From Escherichia coli (GTDB lineage Bacteria; Pseudomonadota; Gammaproteobacteria; Enterobacterales; Enterobacteriaceae), in NCBI RefSeq assembly GCF_003018255.1, contig NZ_CP027440.1: a stretch of DNA of 64,000 nt, one strand, 5' to 3'. Position numbers and translations under genes: made by a program. How positions within the stretch are numbered: position 1 is the stretch's first letter; the number at the start of each line of letters is the position of its first letter. Shown here piece after piece: positions 3,599 to 55,068 of the stretch. The notes under the pieces are model-generated. The model made no database searches and was not told the DNA's origin. It saw nothing but the letters and a program-made list of their open reading frames with translations.

Positions 3599-4933
3599 TC
3601 ATTCCTTGAAATCGTTTGCATCCAGCTCGTGTCGGGAAAGCAGTTTATAAAATTCTGTCCGGTTGCGCCCCGCCATTCTCGCCGCGTGGGTGACGTTGCC
3701 TTTGGTGATTTGCAGCAGCTTACGCAAATAGTTGAGTTCAAAATGATTACGTGCCTCAACAAAGGTTGGCAGCGCCGTGTTTTCGCCCTCCAGCGCCTGC
3801 TCTACTAATGCATCGCTAATCACCGGAGATGAGGTCAGCGCCACGCACTGTTCAATCACGTTGACCAACTGGCGTACATTACCCGGCCAGCTAGCGGTCA
3901 TCAGGCGTTTCATCGCATCGGTGGAGAACGCGCGGACAAACGGTTTATGTCGCTCTGCCGCCTGGCGCAACAGGTGATTTGCCAGTAGCGGAATGTCTTC
4001 TGTGCGCTCTGCCAGAGCCGGAATTTTCAGGCTGACAACGTTGAGGCGGTAATAGAGATCTTCACGGAATTCCCCGCGCGCCATCGCTTTTGGCAGGTCG
4101 CGGTGAGTGGCGGAAATAATCCGCACGTCGATATCAATATCGCGGTTACTGCCCAGCGGGCGCACTTTACGCTCCTGCAACACACGCAGCAGTTTGACCT
4201 GCAACGGTGCAGGCATATCGCCAATCTCATCGAGAAATAGCGTACCGCCTTCCGCCGCCTGGAATAAACCTTCGCGATTGCTGACAGCGCCAGTAAACGC
4301 GCCACGCGCATGACCAAACAGCTCCGACTCCAGCAATTGCTCGGGCAATGCACCACAGTTAATAGCAATAAATGGTTTGCTATTGCGCGGGCTGGCGTTG
4401 TGGATAGCCTGGGCGAAAATCTCTTTCCCGGTGCCGCTCTGACCGTTAATCAAAACGCTAACGTCTGATTGCGCCACCAGCCGCGCCTGTTCCAGCAAAC
4501 GCAGCATCAGCGGGCTGCGGGTGACAATCGCCTCGCGCCAGCGTTCATCGGTGGCTGGCGCGGATTGTTCCAGCGCATCGTCAATTGCCTGATATAGCGC
4601 GTCTTTATCGACAGGCTTGGTGAGGAAACTGAACACTCCCTGCTGTGTTGCAGCAACGGCATCGGGAATAGAACCATGTGCGGTAAGAATAATTACCGGC
4701 ATTCCCGGCTGCACTTTCTGGATTTCAGCAAACAGCTGCATACCATCCATTTCATCCATCCGCAGGTCGCTGATAACTAAATCTACTTTTTCGCGATTCA
4801 GTACCCGTAATCCTTCAGCACCACTTTCCGCCGTGACCACGCTGTAGCCTTCGCTGGTCAGGCGCAGGCCAAGCAGTTTCAGCAATCCCGGATCGTCATC
4901 GACCAGTAATAAATGCGCAGGTTTATGGCTCAT
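3599..4933 (-). CDS. glrR: Sigma54-dependent response regulator (NtrC family)
   Basis: Receiver domain, AAA+ sigma54-activator motifs (GESGTGKE, GAFTGA) and C-terminal HTH; trimmed to the internal ATG giving 444 aa. Confidence 0.9.
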
Positions 4934-5636
4934 CAGGAGTGACCTCATCAGTGGATGGCGCGGGCTTTTCACTCTCGTGCGGCGTATCCGGCGAGAAATT
5001 TCCAGCCGGTTTGCGGGTCGAGAGCTGGCGTTCAATATCGGTCAGGTTTTCCAGCTTGCGGGTAGTGAGTTCCAGTTGCTGTTGTAGAACGTGATGTTGC
5101 TGGCGCAAAGTATCCAGCTCGCTGTCGCTGGACTGCTGGAGTTTACTGTAGCGTTGGCGCTCTTCCGCCAGTTGCAGTTGCAGCGCCTGACCGTCGCGCC
5201 AGAGTTGATACAGAGGGCGAACCTGTGCCGGGATCTCGGTACTTAGCGCATCAATGCGCGCGACCAGCTGGCGGCGCTCATACGGCGTAATTTTGGCGTC
5301 GGCGAGCAAAATCCCTTGTTTAAAGGTATTTTGCCAGTTGCCGTCGTCATATTGGCGGGCTTGCTGACGCGACTGCGCAGGCATTAAACGATCAGCACAA
5401 TCCATCGCCCGCAGCCAGTAAAGCGGATTGGTTTCGGTTGATTTACCTTGCAGCGCCCAGATGTCGCTACATTCAGTAGAAAGATAGTCAGCCAGTTGAT
5501 AAACCGGAATTTTTTCTTCTGCTGGCGTATCAATGGCTGGCTTATTGTGACTCTGCACGCAACCCAGCAATGCCAGACATGGCAGCCCTGCCAGCCACAG
5601 CCGTCGGGGCAATAATCGTTGAAAAATGTGTCGCAT
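4923..5636 (-). CDS. qseG: Outer-membrane lipoprotein QseG/YfhG
   Basis: 237-aa ORF with signal peptide and lipobox (LLGC), between glrK and glrR as in K-12. Confidence 0.85.
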   Translation of the reverse strand: MRHIFQRLLPRRLWLAGLPCLALLGCVQSHNKPAIDTPAEEKIPVYQLADYLSTECSDIWALQGKSTETNPLYWLRAMDCADRLMPAQSRQQARQYDDGNWQNTFKQGILLADAKITPYERRQLVARIDALSTEIPAQVRPLYQLWRDGQALQLQLAEERQRYSKLQQSSDSELDTLRQQHHVLQQQLELTTRKLENLTDIERQLSTRKPAGNFSPDTPHESEKPAPSTDEVTPDEP

Positions 5637-5800: not shown

Positions 5801-7228
5801 TTATTTCGTGTTTTTCGACGACGGTAAATCAATGCGGAAACAAACGTCTTGCCCGCTCTCGTCGACCAGATACAGTTCCCCTTGCATACGGCGAATACAA
5901 TCCCTGGCAATGCTTAATCCCAGACCGCTGCCCTTCACCGCCCCTTTTCGCTGGTGGCTTCCCTGAAAAAAGGGTTCGAAGATCATGGCGCGTTCCTCTT
6001 GCGGAATGGGCGTGCCTGTATTGATGACATCAATATAAACCCGCGCACCATGTGAACTGCTGCGAAGGCAAATGTTACCGGATTCAGCCCCGTAGTGCAC
6101 CGCATTGGAGTAAAGATTATCCAGTACGCTCATCAGCAGCATTGGCTCCGCCAGGCAAGCTGTTGCTTTGAGATCGACGTCGGTATGCATCATTTTAGCC
6201 CGTGCGGGCAGGCTATGAGCAGAAACCACTGTCTCCACCAGCGGTGCTAATTCAACATTCTCCAGTTCCACCGCACTGTCCGCCTGTTTACGGTTGTAAT
6301 CAAGCAGTTGTTCGATCAGTTTTTGCAAATTGCGGCTGCTGCTATCAAGAATGCTCACCACCTCTTTTTGCTCTGGCGTAAGCGGCCCGACAACCTGGTC
6401 AGCCAGTAATTCAGTGCCCTCGCGCATACTCGCCAGTGGCGTTTTTAATTCATGAGATAAATGTCTTAAAAATTGATGGCGTTGGGATTCCAGCCATGAC
6501 AGGCGCTCACTTAACCAAAGAATACGTTGCCCAACCGAGCGTAACTCGCTCGGTCCACTGAACGAAACGCTATTGCCCAGAGAACGCCCTTCCCCCAGAC
6601 GGTTGATCATGCGCTCGATATTTTTCACCGGCCCGATAATCATCCGCGTGAAAAGTAGCACCATCACCAGACTCACCAGAAATAGCACCAGCGATTGCCA
6701 ACCAAAATATTGCCCACGTTCGGCGATTTCACGCTGAAGTTGCTGCCCACGAGAGAACACCACTGTGCGCGTGGCCTGCACCATTTCGGTATTGGCACTG
6801 GCAAAGGCTTCAAGACGCGCGGCGGCGGCAGCATCGGGACCACTGTTGTTACACTGAAGTTGGGCCAGATTGTTCAAATCCTGACGCAATGCCTGGTAAA
6901 GTTTATCGTCTGGCAGTACGCCTGCGTGGGCATCGAGCATTTCGCTGTAACGCTTGCGCTGGCTTTGATAAACCTTCGCAAGCGTAGGGTCGTCCAGCAC
7001 GCAATACTGACGGTAGCTACGCTCCATCTCCAGCGCCGCGTTGGTCATCGCTTCACTACGCCGGGCATCAATAAGCGTAGTGCGGTTAACCAGCGCCGCC
7101 TGATCGCTAAGCGCATTCAGGCTTTGCCAGGCTTGCCATGCCAGCACCAACAGGGGCAGCAGAATCAGCAAAAATGCCAGCATTACCAGTTGTCGTAATG
7201 AGCGGGGAAAAACGGGCCAGCGTTTCAA
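5801..7228 (-). CDS. glrK: Sensor histidine kinase
   Basis: Two TM segments, HAMP, H-box (HELKTPL) and ATPase domain; start set to in-frame TTG at 7226-7228 (475 aa) because the longer ORF would overlap the glmY terminator. Confidence 0.85.
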   Translation of the reverse strand: MKRWPVFPRSLRQLVMLAFLLILLPLLVLAWQAWQSLNALSDQAALVNRTTLIDARRSEAMTNAALEMERSYRQYCVLDDPTLAKVYQSQRKRYSEMLDAHAGVLPDDKLYQALRQDLNNLAQLQCNNSGPDAAAAARLEAFASANTEMVQATRTVVFSRGQQLQREIAERGQYFGWQSLVLFLVSLVMVLLFTRMIIGPVKNIERMINRLGEGRSLGNSVSFSGPSELRSVGQRILWLSERLSWLESQRHQFLRHLSHELKTPLASMREGTELLADQVVGPLTPEQKEVVSILDSSSRNLQKLIEQLLDYNRKQADSAVELENVELAPLVETVVSAHSLPARAKMMHTDVDLKATACLAEPMLLMSVLDNLYSNAVHYGAESGNICLRSSSHGARVYIDVINTGTPIPQEERAMIFEPFFQGSHQRKGAVKGSGLGLSIARDCIRRMQGELYLVDESGQDVCFRIDLPSSKNTK

Positions 7229-7282
7229 GGTGTTACTCTCGTCAGACGCGAATAGCCTGATGCTAACCGAGGGGAAGTTCAG

Positions 7283-7470
7283 ATACAACAAAGCCGGGAA
7301 TTACCCGGCTTTGTTATGGAATAAGGCGGTGCCTAACTCGACGTTTCGCCCGATGGTTGATATAGCTACGCTGATATCAGAAGTTGGACGGCAGGCACCT
7401 TGTTGTGCGTCATTCGTATTTTATGTAGCACGTCCCGAAGGGGCTGACATAAGTCGGTGAATGAGCCACT
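7283..7470 (-). ncRNA. glmY: GlmY small RNA
   Basis: Sigma54 -24/-12 promoter immediately upstream, 5' region AGUGGCUCAUUCACC, 3' terminator hairpin CAAAGCCGGG-N5-CCCGGCUUUG at 7289-7313; located between purL and glrK. Ends approximate. Confidence 0.7.
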
Positions 7471-7481
7471 GGTTACTATTA

Positions 7482-7496
7482 TGCAGTAACTGTGCC
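7482..7496 (-). promoter_or_regulatory. Sigma54 promoter of glmY (TGGCAC-N5-CTGCA)
   Basis: -24 GG / -12 GC elements with correct spacing, about 12 nt upstream of the predicted glmY 5' end. Confidence 0.6.
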
Positions 7497-7586
7497 AATA
7501 AAGAAAATAGTTTGGTAACGTACTGATTGTACGCTGTTTTGAAGGGGTTATGGCTTCTTCGCTATTTGGCTGTAAATCAGCCACTG

Positions 7587-7700
7587 TGTCGCTAAAAAGA
7601 GACAACTTAAGATAAACTTATTAGATGCCATTAAAATCAATTAGTTAAGTGTCGCCAGAAAGCGACGCGGTAAACCACCCATTGTCGTGATTTACAGACA
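7587..7700 (-). promoter_or_regulatory. Three GlrR-type activator boxes (TGTC-N10-GACA) upstream of glmY
   Basis: TGTCGCTAAAAAGAGACA (7587-7604), TGTCGCCAGAAAGCGACG (7650-7667), TGTCGTGATTTACAGACA (7683-7700). Confidence 0.55.
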
Positions 7701-7701
7701 C

Positions 7702-7727
7702 AAAAAAGCTCCCGAAGTTGGGAGCTT
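7702..7727 (-). terminator. Rho-independent terminator downstream of purL
   Basis: Hairpin AGCTCCC-GAAGTT-GGGAGCT followed by a U-run on the minus-strand transcript. Confidence 0.6.
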
Positions 7728-7784
7728 ATAATAGTAGTTGGTGCTTAATGCCTCATCCGGCTGCAAAACCAATGGGTTGACGGC

Positions 7785-10700
7785 TTACCCCAACTGCTTA
7801 CGTGCATTGCGGAAAATACGCATCCACGGCCCATCCTCGCCCCAGTTTTCCGGATGCCAGGAGTTGCTGACAGTACGGAAAACACGTTCCGGGTGCGGCA
7901 TCATAATGGTGACTCGACCACTTTCAGTCGTGACTGCCGTAATACCATTCGGAGAACCGTTCGGGTTAGCCGGGTAGGTTTCAGTGACTTTGCCGAAGTT
8001 ATCGACATAGCGCAGTGCCACCAGCCCTTTGCTTTCCAGTGCCGCCAGATGCGCCGCATCACGCACTTCCACGCGCCCTTCGCCATGAGAGACAGCAATC
8101 GGCATTTGCGAGCCCACCATCCCCTGCAACAGCAGAGACGGGCTTTGGGTTACTTCAACCAGGCTGAAACGCGCTTCAAAGCGATCGGAGGTATTGCGCA
8201 CAAAACGTGGCCACAACTCACTACCTGGGATCAGTTCGCGTAGGTTAGACATCATCTGGCAACCGTTACATACCCCCAGCGCCAGCGTTTGCGGACGGTG
8301 GAAGAAGGTTGCAAACTCATCGCGTACACGGTCATTGAACAGGATAGACTTCGCCCAGCCTTCACCAGCACCCAGCACGTCACCGTAGGAGAATCCACCG
8401 CACGCTACCAGAGCGTGGAAATCCTCCAGGCCCGTGCGTCCAGCCAGCAGGTCGCTCATATGCACATCGATTGCATCGAAGCCTGCACGGTGGAAAGCTG
8501 CCGCCATTTCAACATGCGAGTTCACCCCCTGCTCACGCAGCACGGCAACTTTCGGACGCGCACCAGTGGCAATATACGGTGCTGCCACATCTTCGTTGAT
8601 ATCGAACGACAGTTTCACATTCAGGCCCGGATCGGCGTCGTTTGATTTCGCCTGGTGCTCCTGATCGGCACACTCCGGGTTGTCACGCAGGCGCTGCATC
8701 TGCCAGGTAGTTTCTGCCCACCAGACACGCAACGTAGTGCGGCTTTCGCTGAATACAGTCTGCCCGTTGGCGGTAATCACAAAACGGTCACCGGAAACCG
8801 CCTGCCCTACATAATGGACGCAATCCGCAAGCCCATGCTGTGCCAGTACCGCTTCAACGGCTTCACGGTCAGCGGCACGAACCTGAATCACCGCACCCAG
8901 TTCTTCGTTAAACAACGCCGCCAGGCGATCGTCACCCAGAGAGGCGATATCCGCGTCAATGCCGCAATGACCAGCAAAGGCCATTTCCGCCAGCGTTACC
9001 AGCAGGCCGCCATCAGAGCGGTCGTGATACGCCAGCAGCTTACGCTGTGCAACCAGCGCCTGAATCGCGTCATAGAAGCCTTTCAGTTGCGCGACATCGC
9101 GTACATCTGCCGGTTTGTCGCCAAGCTGACGATAAACCTGCGCCAGCGCCGTTGCGCCCAGCGCGTTATTGCCTTTGCCCAAATCAATCAGCAGCAGTGC
9201 GTTATCTTCGGTAGAAAGCTGTGGCGTGATGGTGTGACGTACATCTTCCACGCGGGCAAATGCAGAAATCACCAGCGACAGCGGCGACGTCATTTCGCGC
9301 TCTTCGTTACCTTCCTGCCAACGGGTTTTCATCGACATAGAGTCTTTACCCACCGGGATCGTCAGGCCCAGCGCCGGACAAAGTTCTTCACCCACGGCTT
9401 TAACGGCTTCATACAGGCCTGCATCTTCACCAGGGTGGCCTGCCGCCGCCATCCAGTTGGCGGAAAGTTTAATGCGTTTGATATCGCCAATTTGTGTTGC
9501 GGCGATGTTGGTTAACGCTTCACCGACCGCCAGACGGGCAGAAGCGGCGAAATCCAGCAGCGCAACCGGCGCACGCTCGCCAATCGCCATCGCTTCACCG
9601 TAGTAGCTATCGAGGCTGGCGGTAGTGACCGCGCAGTTAGCGACCGGCACCTGCCACGGACCCACCATCTGATCGCGCGCCACCATGCCGGTTACGCTGC
9701 GGTCACCAATGGTCACCAGGAAAGTTTTCTCCGCCACGGTCGGCAGGTGCAGCACGCGTTTCACCGCGTCAGCAATGGTAATCCCTTCACGAACCAGCGC
9801 ATCACCCTTCGCTTTCAGCGTTTGTACTTCGCGGGTCATCTTCGGCGTTTTACCAAGCAGTACGTCCAGCGGCAGATCGATCGGCTGATTATCAAAATGA
9901 CGATCGTGCAAAGAAAGATGCAGTTCTTCGGTCGCTTCACCAATCACCGCGTATGGCGCGCGCTCACGCTTACACAGTTCGTCAAACAGCGGTAACTGAT
10001 CGGCAGCAACTGCCAGCACGTAGCGTTCCTGGGATTCGTTACACCAGATTTCCAGCGGGCTCATGCCCGGTTCGTCGCTCAGGATATCGCGCAGTTCGAA
10101 TTTACCGCCGCGCCCGCCGTCGCTCACCAGTTCCGGCATGGCGTTAGAAAGACCGCCTGCGCCAACGTCGTGGATAAACAGGATTGGGTTGGCATCACCA
10201 AGCTGCCAGCAACGGTCGATCACTTCCTGGCAGCGACGCTCCATCTCCGGGTTGTCGCGCTGTACGGAAGCGAAGTCGAGGTCGGCATCAGACTGACCAG
10301 ACGCCATGGAAGACGCCGCGCCGCCGCCAAGACCGATGTTCATTGCCGGGCCGCCGAGAACGACCAGCTTCGCACCAACGTTGATCTCGCCTTTTTGTAC
10401 GTGATCGGCACGAATGTTGCCGATCCCGCCCGCCAGCATGATCGGTTTGTGATAACCGCGCAGCTCTTCGCCATTGTGGCTGTTCACTTTTTCTTCATAA
10501 GTACGGAAGTAGCCATTCAGTGCCGGACGACCAAATTCGTTGTTAAACGCCGCACCGCCCAGCGGGCCTTCGGTCATGATGTCCAGCGCGGTAACAATGC
10601 GCTCAGGTTTACCGAAATCTTCTTCCCACGGCTGTTCGAAGCCAGGAATTCGCAGGTTGGACACGGAGAAACCGACCAGACCAGCTTTCGGCTTCGCGCC

Positions 10701-11672
10701 GCGCCCGGTGGCACCTTCATCGCGGATTTCACCGCCGGAACCGGTCGCCGCGCCCGGCCACGGAGAAATCGCCGTCGGGTGGTTGTGAGTTTCAACTTTC
10801 ATCAGGATATGCGCAGGTTCCTGATGGAAATCGTAGCGGCCCGTTTCGTGGTCAGCAAAGTAGCGGCCCACTTCAGAACCTTCCATTACGGCGGCGTTAT
10901 CTTTATAAGCAGAGAGAACGTGATCCGGCGTGGTTTCGAAGGTGTTTTTGATCATCTTAAACAGTGATTTCGGCTGCTGTTCACCATCGATAACCCAGTC
11001 GGCGTTAAAAATTTTGTGGCGGCAGTGCTCGGAGTTCGCCTGGGCAAACATATACAGTTCGATGTCGTTCGGGTTACGACCCAGCTTTGTGAAAGCATCC
11101 TGCAAATAGTCAATTTCATCTTCCGCCAGTGCCAGGCCAAGACGCAGGTTAGCGTCGATTAGCGCCTGACGGCCCTGCCCCAGCAAATCAACGCTGGTGA
11201 CCGGAGTCGGTTGATGGTGTGCAAACAGCTGCTCTGCATCATCTAAAGCAAAAAAGACCGTTTCCATCATGCGGTCGTGCAGTTCAGCGGTAACCTGCTG
11301 CCATTGTTCATTGGTCAGCGTACCGGCTTCTACATAGTAAGCAACGCCGCGCTCAAGGCGGTTTACCTGTTGTAGACCGCAATTATGGGCGATATCGGTC
11401 GCTTTCGAAGACCAGGGAGAGATGGTGCCAGGACGCGGGGTCACCAGCAGGAGTTTGCCTTGCGGGGCGTGGCTGGCGAGTGCCGGGCCATATTTCAGCA
11501 GGCGTTCAAGTTGTGCGTGCTCATCATCGTTTAACGGCGCATTGAGGTCAGCAAAATGGACATACTCGGCGTAAATAGTGTGAACCGGGAGCCTGGCAGC
11601 CTGAAAACGTGCCAGCAGTTTGTTGATTCGGAATGCCGACAATGCAGGCGAACCACGCAGAATTTCCATCAT
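7785..11672 (-). CDS. purL: Phosphoribosylformylglycinamidine synthase
   Basis: 1295-aa single-chain FGAM synthetase with C-terminal glutamine amidotransferase domain. Confidence 0.95.
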
Positions 11673-16420: not shown

Positions 16421-16650
16421 TCCACACCAGAGCTTTGACGACACCACTCGTTTCAATGGGGGAATTCAGTGGCATGGTGTAAAGCACAGCAAAATTGCCA
16501 ATAACGAAACCGATTTTAATGTACTTATCAAAAAGCGGTCACGTTAATCTTTTTATCAATGTCGATTTCTTCGTAAAGGCTCGCGTTTTTTATGTCAGAG
16601 ATTGCAAGTTGCTTGTACAGGATAACGAAATTGATCCATAATCATTTCTG

Positions 16651-16669
16651 TTGGAATCGTGTGCTGCAC
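16651..16669 (+). repeat. 19-bp direct repeat, copy 2 (TTGGAATCGTGTGCTGCAC)
   Basis: Matches copy 1 at 18 of 19 positions; 249 bp downstream of copy 1. Confidence 0.6.
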
Positions 16670-16689
16670 AAAATTAAAGTTGTAAAGTG

Positions 16690-16722
16690 AAAACCCCCGT
16701 TCCTTACCAGTTCGGGGGTTTT
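16690..16722 (-). terminator. Rho-independent terminator downstream of acpS
   Basis: AAAACCCCCG-N13-CGGGGGTTTT hairpin flanked by A/T runs (could act bidirectionally). Confidence 0.6.
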
Positions 16723-16747
16723 ACTTTATAAAGAGAACGGTATTTTT

Positions 16748-18610: not shown

Positions 18611-20223
<1,613 letters not shown>

Positions 20224-20228
20224 TCAGC

Positions 20229-20319
20229 ACACGAAACAGACCTGATATACATGGCTCGGCTAACTGCTTCACTGCAGTTTCAGTTTACCGGTATATGGGG
20301 ACCAACGCTGTTTCGTGTG
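20229..20319 (-). promoter_or_regulatory. rnc leader stem-loop (RNase III autoregulatory site)
   Basis: Long inverted repeat CACACGAAACAG...CTGTTTCGTGTG in the rnc 5' UTR. Confidence 0.5.
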
Positions 20320-20464
20320 CCGTGGCAACCTAGAGGTGCCAACCTTAAACTTCGGGGGAATATTCTATACACAACGACGGGGGATGTCGTTAGCCACGGG
20401 AGATTTATCTCATAAATAATTCACGTTGTCGCCATAACGGCGACAACGTGAACGAAGATGGCTA

Positions 20465-21454: not shown

Positions 21455-23254
<1,800 letters not shown>

Positions 23255-23451
23255 AAAGTATGATTATTGTGCCTTAATGCCCGGTTAACCAGGCTTTTAG
23301 AAGTCGCTGTTCTGAGCTTAACGTCTGTATTAATAGAAACGCCGCATTCTACACTACAACATTGAGGCGAGGAAATGTTCATACCGTATGGATTGTGGTA
23401 TCTGGAAACGTCCTCGCATTTGTTATGCAAAATGCAACAAAGCCAGTGAAA

Positions 23452-23931
23452 TCACTGGCTCGCGTCTTCCGAAGATGTTTCAAATCGCACAAGGCCAGGC
23501 GGCAAGGCCACGCTTAAGATGATCGGTTGCCATTCAGACCGGGCAGCAAACTTTCGAGAGCAGCCACGTGCAATCAGGAATCCACCAACGCCACCGAGAA
23601 TCGCACCGCATAATGCTGCAATATCTGAAGCAAAGAGTAGCTGAAATAGTGAAGCGATGAGGAATAGTCCCACCAACGGCGACATATAAACCAGTAATGC
23701 GGAGCTAAGCAGGCTGCCTTCGGCGATTCCTAATTCTACTTTTTGCCCCGGCACTAACGGCTCATCACAGGGTACGACAATGGTATGCGTGGTTTGCGGG
23801 CCAAGTTTATTCAACACGCGGCTACCGCAACCGGCACGTGAAGCGCAGCTGCTGCATGAGGCTTTAACATCACAACTAACCAGCGCCTGCCCGTTTTCCC
23901 AGGAGACGACGGTAGCCCACTCTTTGATCAT
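23452..23931 (-). CDS. rseC: SoxR-reducing system protein RseC
   Basis: 159-aa membrane protein, last gene of the rpoE operon. Confidence 0.9.
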   Translation of the reverse strand: MIKEWATVVSWENGQALVSCDVKASCSSCASRAGCGSRVLNKLGPQTTHTIVVPCDEPLVPGQKVELGIAEGSLLSSALLVYMSPLVGLFLIASLFQLLFASDIAALCGAILGGVGGFLIARGCSRKFAARSEWQPIILSVALPPGLVRFETSSEDASQ

Positions 23932-24884
23932 TGCGCTGCCCCGAACTTAATATTCTCGGCAATGCGTTTCGCCGTTTGCGGCGGCAGTTCACCGACAATG
24001 GTGATTTCGGCGTTATCACGTACGCTTGTACTGACGGTTCTGCGCCCGGTGCGCAACATCTGATCGGTGCTCGATGGCGTAGCGCGGTTAACGTTTACCG
24101 AGAAGCTGAATAATCCGTCGGAATAGAGACGTGATTCGATAGGCATGTTGTCCATCGTCGGTAGCGGACGTCGACTACTGGAAACTTCGCTAAAACCCTG
24201 TGGCAACCAGGTTGGCGTCCAGCTGAATTTAGCTTTTTCACCTACAGGAACAGAAAGCAACGGCGGCAAATTTGCCTTCGCCAGCGTCTGCATACTGCTG
24301 CTGATATCCTGATTGACATTAAAAGCAATCACGCGAAATTGTTCCAGCGTTTCACCATCGCGATCAAGGAGATCAACCCGCATCGGTAATTTCGATTCGG
24401 TGTCCATCCACACGATGTAGCTGTAGCGTGTACCATCTCGGGCAACCACACGAATGACTTCGCAAAGACGATCAGCAATACGCGTGCGCCCGACGGAGAT
24501 AAAGTCGTAGTAAGGAGAAAGGCGTTTGAAATCGGTATAGATGAGCGATGGTAGAGAATCAACAATGTAATCGCCATTAAGCGTGAACGGTTCAAGTCCC
24601 GGTTCAAAATAGCTGATTTCATTGCCGCGCTGTACCACTTCCCGGCGCGGGCCATCCATTTGCAACAATTGTGCAAGAGGACGGTTATCGAGGCGTGCAT
24701 GTCGATAACGCAGAGACTCAACACCCTGTTTATTGATGCTGATGAATGACAGCTCGTAATTCAGTGACTGACTGGCCAGGTTCATCTGCTGTAATAACGC
24801 CCCGGACGCGGGAGTGGCCGAGGCGTTAGCAGAGAATAACAGGCTACCTGTCACTAATGACATGGCAAACCAAAGTTGCTTCAT
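23928..24884 (-). CDS. rseB: Sigma-E regulatory protein RseB
   Basis: 318-aa periplasmic protein with signal peptide; overlaps rseC by 4 bp. Confidence 0.9.
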   Translation of the reverse strand: MKQLWFAMSLVTGSLLFSANASATPASGALLQQMNLASQSLNYELSFISINKQGVESLRYRHARLDNRPLAQLLQMDGPRREVVQRGNEISYFEPGLEPFTLNGDYIVDSLPSLIYTDFKRLSPYYDFISVGRTRIADRLCEVIRVVARDGTRYSYIVWMDTESKLPMRVDLLDRDGETLEQFRVIAFNVNQDISSSMQTLAKANLPPLLSVPVGEKAKFSWTPTWLPQGFSEVSSSRRPLPTMDNMPIESRLYSDGLFSFSVNVNRATPSSTDQMLRTGRRTVSTSVRDNAEITIVGELPPQTAKRIAENIKFGAAQ

Positions 24885-26142: not shown

Positions 26143-26224
26143 CCGAGGTAAAGTCTCCCCAAACCAAATTTCCACGCGCTATCGAAACGCCACTCCATTA
26201 GCTGCAATTTGAGCAAGCAAAGGG

Positions 26225-26252
26225 TTAGAGTGTCTCGTTTTTGTAAAGTTCC
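26225..26252 (-). promoter_or_regulatory. Sigma-E-dependent rpoE promoter (GGAACTT-N16-TCTAA)
   Basis: Close match to the sigma-E consensus about 80 bp upstream of the rpoE start. Confidence 0.65.
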
Positions 26253-26540
26253 GTAACGCATCTGTTTTTGTTTGTCATGCTGTAGACGGATCATTATCTA
26301 TCATTATAAGTCTACAGAATCTGAACATCGCATTATCTGTGTAGAAATGCCCATTTAACTGCCTGAAGAGTAACCCAACGGCCTTTTTATTTCACCACCT
26401 AATCCTCCACCAGCCAGTAACTTCTCTTTTTCTCGCCGCCCTGAGTCAGCGTGTTTAGTCACTGTAACAAATATTAAAATAGCAGGTGTTTAATCGCACA
26501 ACATGATGCTATGCTGACCAAACCATGTTTAGTAAATTAA

Positions 26541-28894
<2,354 letters not shown>

Positions 28895-35176: not shown

Positions 35177-35875
35177 ATGACCGAAAACGCTGTTCTCCAG
35201 TTACGCGCCGAGCGTATTGCGCGCGCAACACGTCCTTTTCTTGCCCGCGGTAATCGCGTTCGTCGCTGCCAACGCTGTCTTTTGCCAGAGACATTATGTC
35301 TCTGTTCGACAATTACCCCAGCACAAGCAAAAAGTCGCTTCTGTTTGCTGATGTTCGACACCGAGCCAATGAAGCCCAGTAATACCGGGCGTCTGATTGC
35401 TGATATTTTGCCTGATACCGTTGCGTTTCAATGGTCGCGTACCGAACCCTCGCTAGATTTGCTGGATCTGGTACAAAACCCGGACTATCAGCCAATGGTG
35501 GTCTTTCCCGCCTCGTATGCTGATGAGCAACGGGAAGTGATCTTCACACCACCTGCCGGTAAGCCTCCGCTATTTATCATGCTCGATGGTACCTGGCCTG
35601 AAGCTCGCAAGATGTTTCGTAAAAGTCCGTATCTGGATAATCTTCCCGTCATTTCCGTCGATCTTTCCCGGCTTTCTGCCTATCGCCTGCGTGAAGCCCA
35701 GGCTGAAGGCCAATATTGTACTGCCGAGGTAGCCATCGCACTGTTAGATATGGCCGGCGATACCGAAGCCGCAACGGGCTTAGGCGAGCATTTCACTCGT
35801 TTTAAAACGCGCTATCTGGCAGGAAAAACGCAACATCTGGGTAGCATCACAGCAGAACAGTTAGAAAGCGTTTAA
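35177..35875 (+). CDS. tapT: DTW-domain tRNA-uridine aminocarboxypropyltransferase
   Basis: 232-aa product with DTW motif (MLDGTWPEA); synteny with K-12 yfiP. Confidence 0.8.
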   Translation: MTENAVLQLRAERIARATRPFLARGNRVRRCQRCLLPETLCLCSTITPAQAKSRFCLLMFDTEPMKPSNTGRLIADILPDTVAFQWSRTEPSLDLLDLVQNPDYQPMVVFPASYADEQREVIFTPPAGKPPLFIMLDGTWPEARKMFRKSPYLDNLPVISVDLSRLSAYRLREAQAEGQYCTAEVAIALLDMAGDTEAATGLGEHFTRFKTRYLAGKTQHLGSITAEQLESV

Positions 35876-42021: not shown

Positions 42022-42141
42022 ATGCCTGGCAGTTCCCTACTCTCGCATGGGGAGACCCCACACTACCATCGGCGCTACGGCGTTTCACTTCTGAGTTCGG
42101 CATGGGGTCAGGTGGGACCACCGCGCTAAGGCCGCCAGGCA
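42022..42141 (-). rRNA. rrfG: 5S ribosomal RNA
   Basis: 120-nt match to E. coli 5S rRNA (one base differs from the sequence I recall). Confidence 0.9.
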
Positions 42142-42238
42142 AATTCTGTTTTATCAACACGTCTCGTTATGACATGTCGATTTAATCTGTATCAGGCTGA
42201 AAATCTTCTCTCATCCGCCAAAACATCTTCGGCGTTGT

Positions 42239-45143
<2,905 letters not shown>

Positions 45144-45336
45144 TCACAACCCGAAGATGTTTCTTTCGATTCATCATCGTGTTGCGAAAATTTGAGAGAC
45201 TCACGAACAACTTTCGTTGTTCAGTGTTTCAATTTTCAGCTTGATCCAGATTTTTAAAGAGCAAATATCTCAAACATCACCCGAAGATGAGTTTTGAGAT
45301 ATTAAGGCAGGTGACTTTCACTCACAAACCAGCAAG

Positions 45337-45412
45337 TGGCGTCCCCTAGGGGATTCGAACCCCTGTTACCGCCGTGAAAGGGCGGTGTCCTGGGCCTCTA
45401 GACGAAGGGGAC
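45337..45412 (-). tRNA. gltW: tRNA-Glu (UUC) in the 16S-23S spacer
   Basis: 76-nt exact match to GTCCCCTTCGTCTAGAGGCCCAGGACACCGCCCTTTCACGGCGGTAACAGGGGTTCGAATCCCCTAGGGGACGCCA. Confidence 0.9.
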
Positions 45413-45497
45413 GTATCAGTCTGCTTCGCAAGACGCCTTGCTTTTCACTTTCTATCAGACAATCTGTGTGAGCACTGCAAAGTACGCTTCTTTAAGG

Positions 45498-47039
<1,542 letters not shown>

Positions 47040-47482: not shown

Positions 47483-50056
47483 TTACTGGACGGCGACAAT
47501 CCGGTCTTCATTAACTTCCAGGCGAATAACTTTACCCGGAACCAATTCACCAGACAGTATTTGCTGTGCCAGCGGGTTTTCGATCTGCTGCTGGATAGCA
47601 CGTTTCAGCGGACGTGCACCATAGACCGGATCGTAACCGTTCTCGCTCAGCAGTTTCAGCGCCTCGTCAGAAATGTGGATTTCATAACCACGTTCTTCCA
47701 GACGTTTGTACAGACGTTTCAACTGAATCTGCGCAATCGACGCAATGTGCTGTTCACCCAGCGGATGGAAGACCACCACTTCATCGATACGGTTAATGAA
47801 TTCCGGACGGAAGTTATGGCTTACCACACCGAGCACCAGCTCTTTCATGTGCGCATAATCCAGTTCACCGAAGCGTTCCTGAATCAAATCGGAACCGAGG
47901 TTAGAGGTCATAATGACAACCGTATTACGGAAGTCGACCGTTCTCCCCTGCCCGTCAGTCAGACGCCCATCATCCAGTACCTGCAACAGAATGTTGAAGA
48001 CATCCGGATGCGCTTTTTCCACTTCATCCAGCAGGATGACGGAATACGGACGACGACGCACAGCTTCGGTCAGGTAGCCACCTTCTTCATAACCGACATA
48101 TCCCGGAGGCGCACCAACCAGACGAGACACCGAGTGTTTCTCCATAAACTCGGACATATCGATACGGACCATCGCCTCGTCGCTATCAAACATAAAGTTC
48201 GCTAGCGCCTTACAAAGCTCAGTTTTCCCCACACCGGTTGGGCCGAGGAACAGGAATGAACCAATCGGGCGATTTGGATCCGCCAGCCCCGCACGGCTAC
48301 GACGAATAGCGTTAGATACCGCATCAACCGCTTCGTTCTGACCAATAACGCGATGGTGCAGTTCTTGCTCCATACGCAGCAGTTTTTCGCGCTCGCTTTC
48401 CATCATGCGAGAAACCGGAATCCCCGTCCAACGCGCCAGCACTTCAGCAATTTCGGCATCGGTCACTTTATTACGCAACAGACGCATAGTTTTGCCTTCG
48501 AGCTGCGTTGCGGCTTCCAGTTGCTTTTCCAGTTCCGGGATTTTGCCGTATTGCAGTTCAGACATCCGCGCCAGGTCCCCCACACGGCGAGCCTGTTCAA
48601 TAGCGATTTTCGCCTGTTCCAGTTCCGCTTTAATGGTCTGTGTACCAGAAAGCGATGCTTTCTCTGCTTTCCACTCTTCTTCTAACTCGGAGTACTGACG
48701 TTCTTTGTCGCTCAGTTCTTCGTTGAGCATATCCAGGCGTTTTTTACTGGCTTCATCAGACTCTTTCATTAACGCCTGTTGTTCCAGTTTGAGCTGAATG
48801 ATACGGCGATCGAGTCGGTCGAGTTCTTCTGGTTTTGAGTCAATCTGCATACGAATGCTGGATGCTGCCTCATCGATCAGGTCGATGGCTTTATCTGGCA
48901 GCTGACGGTCAGCAATGTAGCGATGAGACAACGTCGCCGCTGCAACAATTGCCGGGTCAGTAATTTGCACATGGTGGTGCAGTTCGTAACGTTCTTTTAA
49001 GCCACGCAGAATAGCAATGGTGTCTTCAACAGAAGGCTCGGCAACAAACACTTTCTGGAAACGACGCTCCAGCGCAGCATCTTTTTCGATGTACTGGCGA
49101 TATTCGTCAAGCGTCGTGGCACCTACGCAGTGCAATTCACCACGCGCCAGCGCCGGTTTCAGCATGTTTCCGGCGTCCATTGCGCCATCGGCTTTACCCG
49201 CACCGACCATGGTATGTAATTCGTCGATAAACAGGATGACGTTGCCTTCCTGTTTGGCAAGATCGTTAAGCACGCCTTTTAAACGTTCTTCAAACTCACC
49301 GCGATATTTCGCCCCAGCCACCAGCGCGCCCATATCCAGCGCCAGTACGCGGCGGCCTTTCAACCCTTCCGGCACTTCGCCGTTGATAATACGCTGCGCC
49401 AGACCTTCAACGATGGCAGTTTTACCGACACCGGGTTCACCAATCAGTACCGGGTTATTTTTAGTACGACGTTGCAGCACCTGAATGGTACGGCGAATTT
49501 CTTCATCACGACCAATCACCGGATCGAGTTTGCCCTGTTCGGCTCGTTCGGTAAGGTCGATGGTATATTTTTTCAAAGCCTGACGTTGGTCTTCAGCACC
49601 TTGATCGTTCACGCTTTCACCTCCACGCATTTGTTCAATCGCTTGAGTAATGTTGGCGGTGGTCGCCCCTGCTGCTTTCAGGATGTCGGCCAGCGTGCCG
49701 CGAGACTCAAGTGCCGCCAGAACGAACAGTTCTGACGAGATAAAGTTATCACCACGTTTTTGCGCCAGCTTGTCGCAAAGATTAAGAACGCGCACCAGAT
49801 CCTGTGATGGCTGGACATCACCACCAGTACCTTCAACCTGTGGTAAACGATTTAATGCCTGATTGATATCTGTGCGCAACTGGCCAGCATTAATGCCAGC
49901 GGATGTTAATAAAGGACTAACCGAACCCCCTTCCTGATTCAGCAGGGCGCTCATTAAATGAAGTGGTTCGATGAATTGGTTGTCGTGCCCGAGTGCAAGT
50001 GATTGGGCATCGGCAAGAGCAAGCTGGAATTTATTAGTAAGACGATCCAGACGCAT
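47483..50056 (-). CDS. clpB: Disaggregase chaperone ClpB
   Basis: 857-aa product starting [18 protein letters not shown]; two AAA+ modules and coiled-coil M domain. Confidence 0.95.
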
Positions 50057-50094
50057 AACTCCTCCCATAACGGATCAAAGTTGCTACTGGAGAT

Positions 50095-50123
50095 TAAATG
50101 AGGTCATCCCTCAATTATTCAAG
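50095..50123 (-). promoter_or_regulatory. Sigma32 heat-shock promoter of clpB (CTTGAA-N14-CCTCATTTA)
   Basis: Match to the sigma32 consensus CTTGAAA/CCCCATNT with correct spacing. Confidence 0.55.
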
Positions 50124-50185
50124 GTTATTGACCAGATTAATGTGAAAAGAAAATCACGCGTACCGGATCGTCTTGATTCTTTAGG

Positions 50186-54866: not shown

Positions 54867-54922
54867 GTTGACAGCGTGAAAACAGTACGGGTACTGTACT
54901 AAAGTCACTTAAGGAAACAAAC

Positions 54923-54970
54923 ATGAAACACACACCGTTTTTCTTCGCATTCTTTTTTACCTTCCCCTGA
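54923..54970 (+). CDS. pheL: pheA leader peptide (15 aa, 7 Phe codons)
   Basis: Translates to [15 protein letters not shown]; immediately followed by the attenuator. Confidence 0.8.
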   Translation: [15 protein letters not shown]

Positions 54971-55016
54971 ATGGGAGGCGTTTCGTCGTGTGAAACAGAA
55001 TGCGAAGACGAACAAT

Positions 55017-55046
55017 AAGGCCTCCCAAATCGGGGGGCCTTTTTTA
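55017..55046 (+). terminator. pheA attenuator terminator
   Basis: AAGGCCTCCC-AAAT-CGGGGGGCCTT hairpin followed by a T-run, 20 bp upstream of the pheA ATG. Confidence 0.7.
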
Positions 55047-55068
55047 TTGATAACAAAAAGGCAACACT

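What the first reader, a model, noticed from the sequence alone, without database searches (positions are those of the whole stretch)
7283..7700. glmY sRNA module upstream of the glrK-qseG-glrR operon
Between purL and glrK the minus strand carries, in order, three TGTC-N10-GACA boxes, a sigma54 promoter (TGGCAC-N5-CTGCA), an RNA of about 185 nt starting AGUGGCUCAUUCACC, and an intrinsic terminator. This matches the GlmY sRNA, which is activated by the downstream-encoded GlrR. The whole regulatory circuit is therefore present and apparently intact in this window. The longest glrK ORF would overlap the glmY terminator, which argues for the TTG start at 7228.
Basis: partly seen in the sequence, partly recalled or inferred. 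Interest (0 to 1): 0.4.

Follow-up and report, generated by a model that had tools for sequence, protein, structure and literature searches.

The report
Known E. coli glmY small-RNA gene
This is the already well-studied E. coli glmY small-RNA gene with its known control region and neighbouring sensor genes, all intact; the only unusual detail is a rare one-letter change in one activator-binding site.

Summary
The finding is correct and ordinary. Window 7470..7287 (minus strand) is glmY. Rfam GlmY_tke1 scores 146 bits against a cut-off of 33, and the sequence matches the annotated K-12 glmY at 184 of 184 bases. It lies between purL and glrK (qseE), as in K-12.

The sigma-54 promoter TGGCAC-N5-CTGCA (7497..7482) is the only such match in the 64 kb. 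GlrK, QseG and GlrR are full length and differ from K-12 by 3, 4 and 2 residues.

The TTG start of glrK at 7228 is confirmed. K-12 and PGAP annotate it. The published qseEGF transcript starts 25 bp upstream of it. The aligned codon is TTG or GTG in 76 of 76 other species.

Corrections:
- Only two boxes are exact TGTC-N10-GACA. The middle one (ABS2, 7667..7650) reads CGTC. This allele occurs in 9 of 5426 complete E. coli genomes, but the same change is fixed in 5 of 75 other species, so it is probably tolerated.
- "Whole circuit" overstates it: rpoN, ihfA/B, rapZ, glmZ and glmS lie elsewhere.

Nothing here is new.

The parts
7706..7727 (-). purL intrinsic terminator. It sits just upstream of ABS1 and marks the distal edge of the glmY control region.
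   Evidence: Terminator scan found 8 pairs plus a T run. purL is the ORF 7785..11672, 1295 aa, and is annotated as purL in K-12 and PGAP.
7683..7700 (-). GlrR/QseF binding site ABS1, TGTC-tgtaaatcac-GACA, at -230. Reported as dispensable in K-12.
   Evidence: Exact motif match. Identical in K-12 and in five other E. coli alleles. A site at the same position is perfect in 61 of 75 species. Its role is from PMC3045617.
7650..7667 (-). GlrR/QseF binding site ABS2, CGTC-gctttctggc-GACA, at -197. K-12 has TGTC. ABS2 is reported as essential for the sigma-54 promoter in K-12.
   Evidence: Sequence, one-mismatch match and T-to-C difference from K-12. The C allele is in 9 of 5426 genomes. The nearest common haplotype has T. 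CGTC occurs at ABS2 in 5 of 75 other species. Essentiality is from PMC3045617.
7635..7647 (+). Distal IHF consensus site, AATCAATTAGTTA, between ABS2 and ABS3.
   Evidence: Matches WATCARN4TTR. PMC3045617 describes two IHF-like sites flanking ABS3.
7587..7604 (-). GlrR/QseF binding site ABS3, TGTC-tctttttagc-GACA, at -134. Reported as essential in K-12.
   Evidence: Exact motif match. Identical to K-12. -134 is the modal position, found in 51 of 76 sequences (75 species representatives plus the window).
7516..7528 (-). Promoter-proximal IHF consensus site, AATCAGTACGTTA.
   Evidence: Matches WATCARN4TTR. Invariant in all seven E. coli alleles aligned. The IHF requirement is shown in PMC3045617.
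7482..7497 (-). Sigma-54 promoter, TGGCAC-agtta-CTGCA.
   Evidence: The only match in the window. Identical to K-12. It was part of the pattern that recovered glmY loci from 80 genomes.
7478..7483 (-). [quoted passage not shown]
   Evidence: Sequence. The hexamer and its overlap with the -12 element are described in PMC3045617.
7287..7470 (-). glmY primary transcript, 184 nt.
   Evidence: 184/184 identical to K-12 b4441. Fold has z = -5.15.
7323..7470 (-). Part of GlmY that corresponds in length to the 148-nt processed, active form. It is exactly the Rfam match.
   Evidence: Rfam RF00128 at 146 bits, model positions 1-163 of 163. The 184-to-148 nt processing is stated in PMC4152352.
7287..7315 (-). 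glmY terminator hairpin with a GCCGGG/CCCGGC core, followed by an interrupted U tract.
   Evidence: 13-bp hairpin in both the MFE and centroid folds.
7253..7288 (-). Weak sigma-70 promoter of qseEGF (glrK-qseG-glrR), with the transcript start near 7253. The candidate hexamers TTGTAT (7288..7283) and TAGCAT (7265..7260) are my inference.
   Evidence: [quoted passage not shown] This stretch is identical to K-12.
5801..7228 (-). glrK (qseE) sensor kinase, 475 aa, TTG start, with GAGAG Shine-Dalgarno at 7240..7236.
   Evidence: Same start as K-12 b2556 and PGAP. 3 aa differences from K-12. The start codon is conserved as TTG or GTG in 76 of 76 species.
4923..5636 (-). qseG lipoprotein, 237 aa.
   Evidence: NCBIfam NF007997 at 359 bits against a cut-off of 234. 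4 aa differences from K-12.
3599..4933 (-). glrR (qseF) sigma-54-dependent response regulator, 444 aa. D56 and the GAFTGA motif are present.
   Evidence: NCBIfam NF011695 at 981 bits against a cut-off of 763. 2 aa differences from K-12, and the sequence was printed.

Best explanation
This is the E. coli glmY locus. Shown here: the sequence is glmY, with its promoter, activator boxes, IHF consensus sites and terminator, followed by intact glrK-qseG-glrR. Taken from the K-12 literature and carried over because the sequences are identical: phosphorylated GlrR (QseF) binds the upstream boxes, with the ABS2 and ABS3 sites essential. IHF bends the DNA, and sigma-54 RNA polymerase starts at the A at 7470. 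A weak sigma-70 promoter (-10 CATAAT) overlaps it and gives basal transcription from the same base. GlrK, stimulated by the lipoprotein QseG, phosphorylates GlrR. The 184-nt transcript ends at the hairpin at 7315..7287 and is trimmed to 148 nt. Processed GlmY sequesters the RNase E adaptor RapZ, which spares GlmZ, and GlmZ then activates glmS translation. The glrK-qseG-glrR operon has its own weak sigma-70 promoter between the glmY terminator and the TTG start at 7228. The T-to-C change in ABS2 is most likely neutral or mildly weakening.
For: Rfam GlmY_tke1 at 146 bits, E = 1.5e-32, full model, no non-standard pairs. 184/184 identity to K-12 glmY, and complete identity from 7528 down to 7200. 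Same gene order as K-12. Unique sigma-54 promoter match. The three boxes sit at -230, -197 and -134, the modal positions in 75 species. IHF consensus sites flank ABS3. Fold z = -5.15 with a terminator hairpin. GlrR and QseG score above the NCBIfam cut-offs. GlrK is 472/475 identical to K-12. The locus is present in 5425 of 5426 complete E. coli genomes. The mechanism is from PMC3045617, PMC4152352 and PMC6075780.
Against: No expression data exist for this strain. ABS2, reported as essential in K-12, departs from the TGTC consensus at its first base, so GlrR-dependent activation could be weaker than in K-12. The partners rpoN, ihfA/B, rapZ, glmZ and glmS are outside the window and were not checked.
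Confidence: 0.97

Rival explanations
1. The locus is glmY, but in this lineage the T-to-C change in ABS2 substantially weakens GlrR binding. glmY would then depend mainly on the constitutive sigma-70 promoter, and QseE/QseF signalling would be partly uncoupled from it.
For: ABS2 is reported as essential for the sigma-54 promoter in K-12 (PMC3045617). The changed base is a consensus position in both TGTC-N10-GACA and the later TGT-N12-ACA form. The allele is rare, 9 of 5426 genomes, and derived relative to the nearest haplotype.
Against: CGTC is fixed at ABS2 in 5 of 75 other species that keep the whole system. The mirror change GACG occurs in 4 of 75, and two species have both. The outermost base pair is therefore the tolerated position, while the inner GTC...GAC is kept in 74 of 75. 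The C allele sits on two different E. coli haplotypes, which suggests it is not strongly selected against. ABS1, ABS3, the IHF sites and GlrR are all intact.
Confidence: 0.12
2. The RNA is not an independent gene. It would be the 5' leader of a glmY-glrK-qseG-glrR operon transcript, as reported for Proteus mirabilis.
For: glmY and glrK are on the same strand and 58 nt apart. The abstract of PMC8745638 reports that glmY-qseE-qseG-qseF form an operon in P. mirabilis.
Against: A strong terminator hairpin lies between them. In K-12, which is identical over this whole stretch, qseEGF is transcribed from its own promoter 25 bp upstream of the start codon, and read-through from glmY 'does virtually not occur' (PMC6075780).
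Confidence: 0.03
3. The RNA is the paralogue GlmZ, or a decayed copy, rather than functional GlmY.
For: GlmY and GlmZ belong to one Rfam clan, and a lower-scoring match to another family of the GlmY clan (CL00011) overlapped this site.
Against: GlmY is the best-scoring member of the clan at 146 bits. The sequence is identical to K-12 glmY. The purL/glrK context is that of glmY. According to PMC3045617, E. coli glmZ has only a sigma-70 promoter and no GlrR sites.
Confidence: 0.005

Closest known systems
E. coli K-12 glmY (b4441; formerly sroF or tke1), Rfam RF00128, with its GlrR- and sigma-54-dependent promoter
   Same: The RNA matches at 184 of 184 bases. [quoted passage not shown] Gene order is the same.
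   Different: There are 22 substitutions and one 1-bp indel in the 314 bp upstream of +1. All lie distal to the proximal IHF site, and 11 of them fall in 7570..7529. One of the 22 changes ABS2 from TGTC to CGTC.
glmY loci of other Enterobacterales, such as Salmonella, Citrobacter, Enterobacter and Erwinia
   Same: They share three boxes with 33- and 63-bp spacing, the sigma-54 promoter, and glrK downstream with a TTG or GTG start.
   Different: Most other genera have TGTT rather than TGTC in ABS3 (52 of 75). PMC3045617 reports that some genera lack the overlapping sigma-70 -10 element.
GlmZ (Rfam clan CL00011)
   Same: It is a homologous sRNA with a similar fold, and it also binds RapZ (PMC4152352).
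   Different: GlmZ base-pairs with glmS mRNA and lies at a different locus. [quoted passage not shown] It scores lower here.

Membership tests
GlmY sRNA (Rfam RF00128 GlmY_tke1) | Covariance-model score at or above the gathering threshold, over the whole model | tested here: met
   146 bits against 33, model positions 1-163 of 163, no non-standard pairs
GlmY sRNA (Rfam RF00128 GlmY_tke1) | Sequence identity to the experimentally studied K-12 gene | tested here: met
   184/184 identical to b4441
GlmY sRNA (Rfam RF00128 GlmY_tke1) | Conserved position between purL and glrK (qseE), on the same strand | tested here: met
   glrK lies downstream in 76 of 77 sequences examined (76 other species plus the window)
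GlmY sRNA (Rfam RF00128 GlmY_tke1) | Compensatory base changes that support the helices | tested here: inconclusive
   In my own 73-sequence alignment the helices are almost invariant, with one pair showing a double change. That says nothing for or against the structure.
GlmY sRNA (Rfam RF00128 GlmY_tke1) | Transcript of 184 nt processed to 148 nt, which binds RapZ and stabilises GlmZ | not testable with these tools
   Known for K-12 (PMC4152352) and inferred here from sequence identity
GlrR/QseF- and sigma-54-dependent glmY promoter | -24/-12 element TGGCAC-N5-YTGCW at the right distance from +1 | tested here: met
   7497..7482, the only match in the window; identical to K-12
GlrR/QseF- and sigma-54-dependent glmY promoter | Three TGTC-N10-GACA activator sites more than 100 bp upstream | tested here: met
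   The sites lie at -230, -197 and -134. Two are exact and ABS2 has one mismatch (CGTC). The same deviation is seen in 5 of 75 other species.
GlrR/QseF- and sigma-54-dependent glmY promoter | IHF sites (WATCARN4TTR) flanking ABS3 | tested here: met
   7635..7647 and 7528..7516
GlrR/QseF- and sigma-54-dependent glmY promoter | Expression dependent on glrR, rpoN and ihf | not testable with these tools
   Shown for K-12 in PMC3045617
QseE/QseG/QseF (GlrK/QseG/GlrR) three-component system | Intact kinase, lipoprotein and sigma-54 activator with the phospho-acceptor D56 and the GAFTGA motif | tested here: met
   GlrR NF011695 at 981 bits against 763, and QseG NF007997 at 359 bits against 234. GlrK is 472/475 identical to K-12, has no internal stops, and D56 and GAFTGA are visible in GlrR. 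No NCBIfam model specific to GlrK matched.

The most novel reading that the evidence does not exclude
The rare, derived T-to-C change in the first base of ABS2 appears in 9 of 5426 complete E. coli genomes, on two haplotype backgrounds. It could be a natural attenuator of QseF-dependent glmY induction. If so, these lineages would respond differently to envelope or host signals.
Probability: 0.12. Interest if true: 0.2.

Novelty: already known. Interest (0 to 1): 0.07.

Why it matters
It matters little beyond annotation. PGAP does not annotate glmY in the closest genome, so the scan correctly recovers an unannotated but well-known sRNA gene. It also correctly rejects the longest-ORF start for glrK. 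The only strain-specific item is a rare single-base variant in one GlrR site. That could serve as a natural allele for testing how much the outermost base of the palindrome contributes to binding.

Tried and rejected
1. I aligned 73 distinct GlmY sequences with MAFFT and folded them with RNAalifold to look for covariation. The helices are almost invariant, so the result is uninformative, and I rely on the Rfam model instead.
2. I scanned the 496-aa longest glrK ORF against NCBIfam to see where a GlrK model would begin. No GlrK-specific model matched, only generic histidine-kinase models that cover the C-terminal part. I replaced this with the cross-species start-codon test.
3. The simple promoter and terminator scan found no sigma-70-like site at its threshold. 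It also missed the glmY terminator, probably because the stem uses up part of the T run. The hairpin is clear in the fold, and the sigma-70 promoters are weak ones known from the literature.
4. I looked for a second GlrR/sigma-54 target, the rpoE promoter reported in PMC6075780. No TGGCAC-N5-TTGCW match with up to 2 mismatches lies between the rpoE ORF and nadB (26176..26549). I did not pursue this.
5. I considered GlmZ identity, operon-leader status and the small ORFs overlapping glmY (7366..7605 on the minus strand, 7230..7460 on the plus strand). I rejected all three on Rfam score, the published transcript mapping and the absence of any CDS there in the K-12 and PGAP annotation.

Full report
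**What is there**

Scanning the whole window against Rfam gave a GlmY_tke1 match at 7470..7323, at 146 bits against a gathering score of 33 and E = 1.5e-32. It covers model positions 1-163 of 163. A focused rescan showed no non-standard base pairs, and the overlapping match to another family of the GlmY clan scored lower. The 185-nt stretch folds at -65.3 kcal/mol, with z = -5.15 and none of 200 shuffles folding as well. It ends in a 13-bp hairpin at 7315..7287.

**Identity with K-12**

In NC_000913.3 the order is glnB, glrR, qseG, glrK, glmY (b4441, 184 nt), purL. Window 7470..7287 matches K-12 glmY at 184 of 184 bases, and the 58-nt spacer down to glrK is also identical. In fact the two sequences are identical from 7528 down to 7200. 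The 651-bp region is present in 5425 of 5426 complete E. coli genomes and is 100% identical in strain DETEC-S792. PGAP annotates purL and qseE there but not glmY. The window is therefore E. coli chromosome, and the RNA is glmY.

**Promoter and enhancer**

- TGGCAC-agtta-CTGCA at 7497..7482 is the only match to TGGCACN5YTGCW in 64 kb.
- Exact TGTC-N10-GACA occurs at 7700..7683 and 7604..7587. A third, unrelated copy lies at 35276.
- The middle box, 7667..7650, is CGTC-N10-GACA. K-12 has TGTC there.
- Relative to +1 at 7470 the boxes start at -230, -197 and -134.

The published description gives three TGTC-N10-GACA GlrR sites (ABS1-3) more than 100 bp upstream. It also gives two IHF-like sites (WATCARN4TTR) flanking ABS3 and an overlapping sigma-70 promoter whose -10 hexamer CATAAT overlaps the -12 element. 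ABS2 and ABS3 are essential for the sigma-54 promoter, and ABS1 is dispensable (PMC3045617). The window carries both IHF consensus matches, at 7635..7647 and 7528..7516, and CATAAT at 7483..7478.

**Is the cluster more than chance?**

Taken one at a time the boxes are not enriched in the window. I therefore scanned one genome per species for the sigma-54 promoter joined to the GlmY 5' end, which returned 80 loci. In 75 species representatives with enough upstream sequence, three boxes recur with spacings of 33 and 63 bp, most often at -230, -197 and -134, exactly as in the window.

- ABS2 is the best conserved, perfect in 67 of 75.
- ABS1 is perfect in 61 of 75.
- ABS3 is usually TGTT-N10-GACA, in 52 of 75.

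**The ABS2 variant**

A 55-nt query centred on the variant base can seed a megablast match only if that base agrees.

- The window version matched 9 of 5426 genomes, and the K-12 version matched 3202.
- The remaining genomes break the 28-base seed with other nearby polymorphisms. All four other alleles I read have T.
- The nearest common haplotype (strain MS6198) differs from the window at four positions, one of which is this base, and it has T. C is therefore derived.
- C occurs on two clearly different haplotypes, the window's and UTAK-1's.

Across species, CGTC is fixed at ABS2 in 5 of 75 and the mirror change GACG in 4 of 75, while the inner GTC...GAC is kept in 74 of 75. The outermost base pair of the palindrome is therefore the position that tolerates change. 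I judge the variant to be neutral or mildly weakening. Real attenuation remains possible, at roughly 0.12, and can be tested.

**glrK start**

The longest ORF starts at TTG 7291, inside the terminator tail. Four lines of evidence support 7228 instead.

- K-12 b2556 and PGAP both start at the TTG aligned with 7228, giving 475 aa.
- GAGAG lies 7 nt upstream of it.
- In K-12 the qseEGF transcript starts 25 bp upstream of the start codon, near 7253, so the upstream TTGs are not on the mRNA. Read-through from glmY is reported as virtually absent (PMC6075780).
- In 76 of 76 other species the codon aligned with 7228 is TTG (58) or GTG (18). In 28 of them no in-frame start exists upstream.

**The two-component genes**

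glrK, qseG and glrR have no internal stops and differ from K-12 by 3, 4 and 2 residues. GlrR keeps D56 and the GAFTGA motif. GlrR and QseG score above their NCBIfam equivalog cut-offs.

**How it works**

These steps are known for K-12 and inferred here from sequence identity. GlrK, stimulated by QseG, phosphorylates GlrR. GlrR bound at the ABS sites, together with IHF, activates sigma-54 polymerase at 7470, and the overlapping sigma-70 promoter gives basal expression. The 184-nt RNA is trimmed to 148 nt, which is the same length as the Rfam match. It sequesters RapZ, which protects GlmZ, and GlmZ activates glmS (PMC4152352, PMC3045617, PMC6075780). The genes rpoN, ihfA/B, rapZ, glmZ and glmS are not in the window, so "whole circuit" overstates what the window holds.

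**Verdict**

This is a correct identification of a well-known locus, with one factual slip (two exact boxes, not three) and several known features omitted. It is not novel.

Noticed in passing
window 7529-7570 (minus strand), between ABS3 and the proximal IHF site: There are 11 substitutions against K-12 in 42 nt (26%) with no indel, while the next 329 nt (7528..7200) are identical. Other E. coli alleles also vary here. It looks like a spacer where length is constrained but sequence is not.
   Followed up: partly
window 7740-7760, just after the purL stop codon: This is a REP-like sequence with an 18-bp indel polymorphism among E. coli. The window and K-12 have the short form. EC17GD31, Z1323HEC0422, AST85 and UTAK-1 carry an extra ~GGCATTCACGCCGCATCC.
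   Followed up: partly
window 7417 and 7354 (glmY +54 and +117): The window's glmY RNA is K-12-like at the two positions where its closest upstream haplotype (strain MS6198) differs: A where MS6198 has T, and A where it has C. This suggests a recombinant mosaic across the locus.
   Followed up: no
L063 (CACSKA010000009.1): A contig labelled Chryseobacterium sp. 18061 (a Bacteroidota genus) carries a typical enterobacterial glmY promoter, glmY and a glrK start. The likely cause is contamination or mislabelling of that assembly.
   Followed up: no
L045 (uncultured Erwinia MAG, CALYQW010000017.1): It matches the sigma-54 promoter plus GlmY 5' end pattern. However, it has no recognisable GlrR boxes upstream and no glrK downstream. 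It could be a relocated or rearranged copy.
   Followed up: no
window 35276-35293: A third exact TGTC-N10-GACA lies here, isolated and far from any sigma-54-like promoter match. About one is expected by chance in the window.
   Followed up: no
window 26176-26549 (between the rpoE ORF and nadB): rpoE is reported as a second QseF/sigma-54 target in K-12 (PMC6075780). No TGGCAC-N5-TTGCW match with up to 2 mismatches lies in this interval.
   Followed up: partly
window, whole: Other Rfam matches above threshold are an rRNA operon with a tRNA (42024..47039), AsrC (23136..23967), rncO (20139..20353), RyfD (50037..50175), StyR-44 (45151..45259), ohsC (16650..16727) and the Phe leader (54922..55047).
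   Followed up: no
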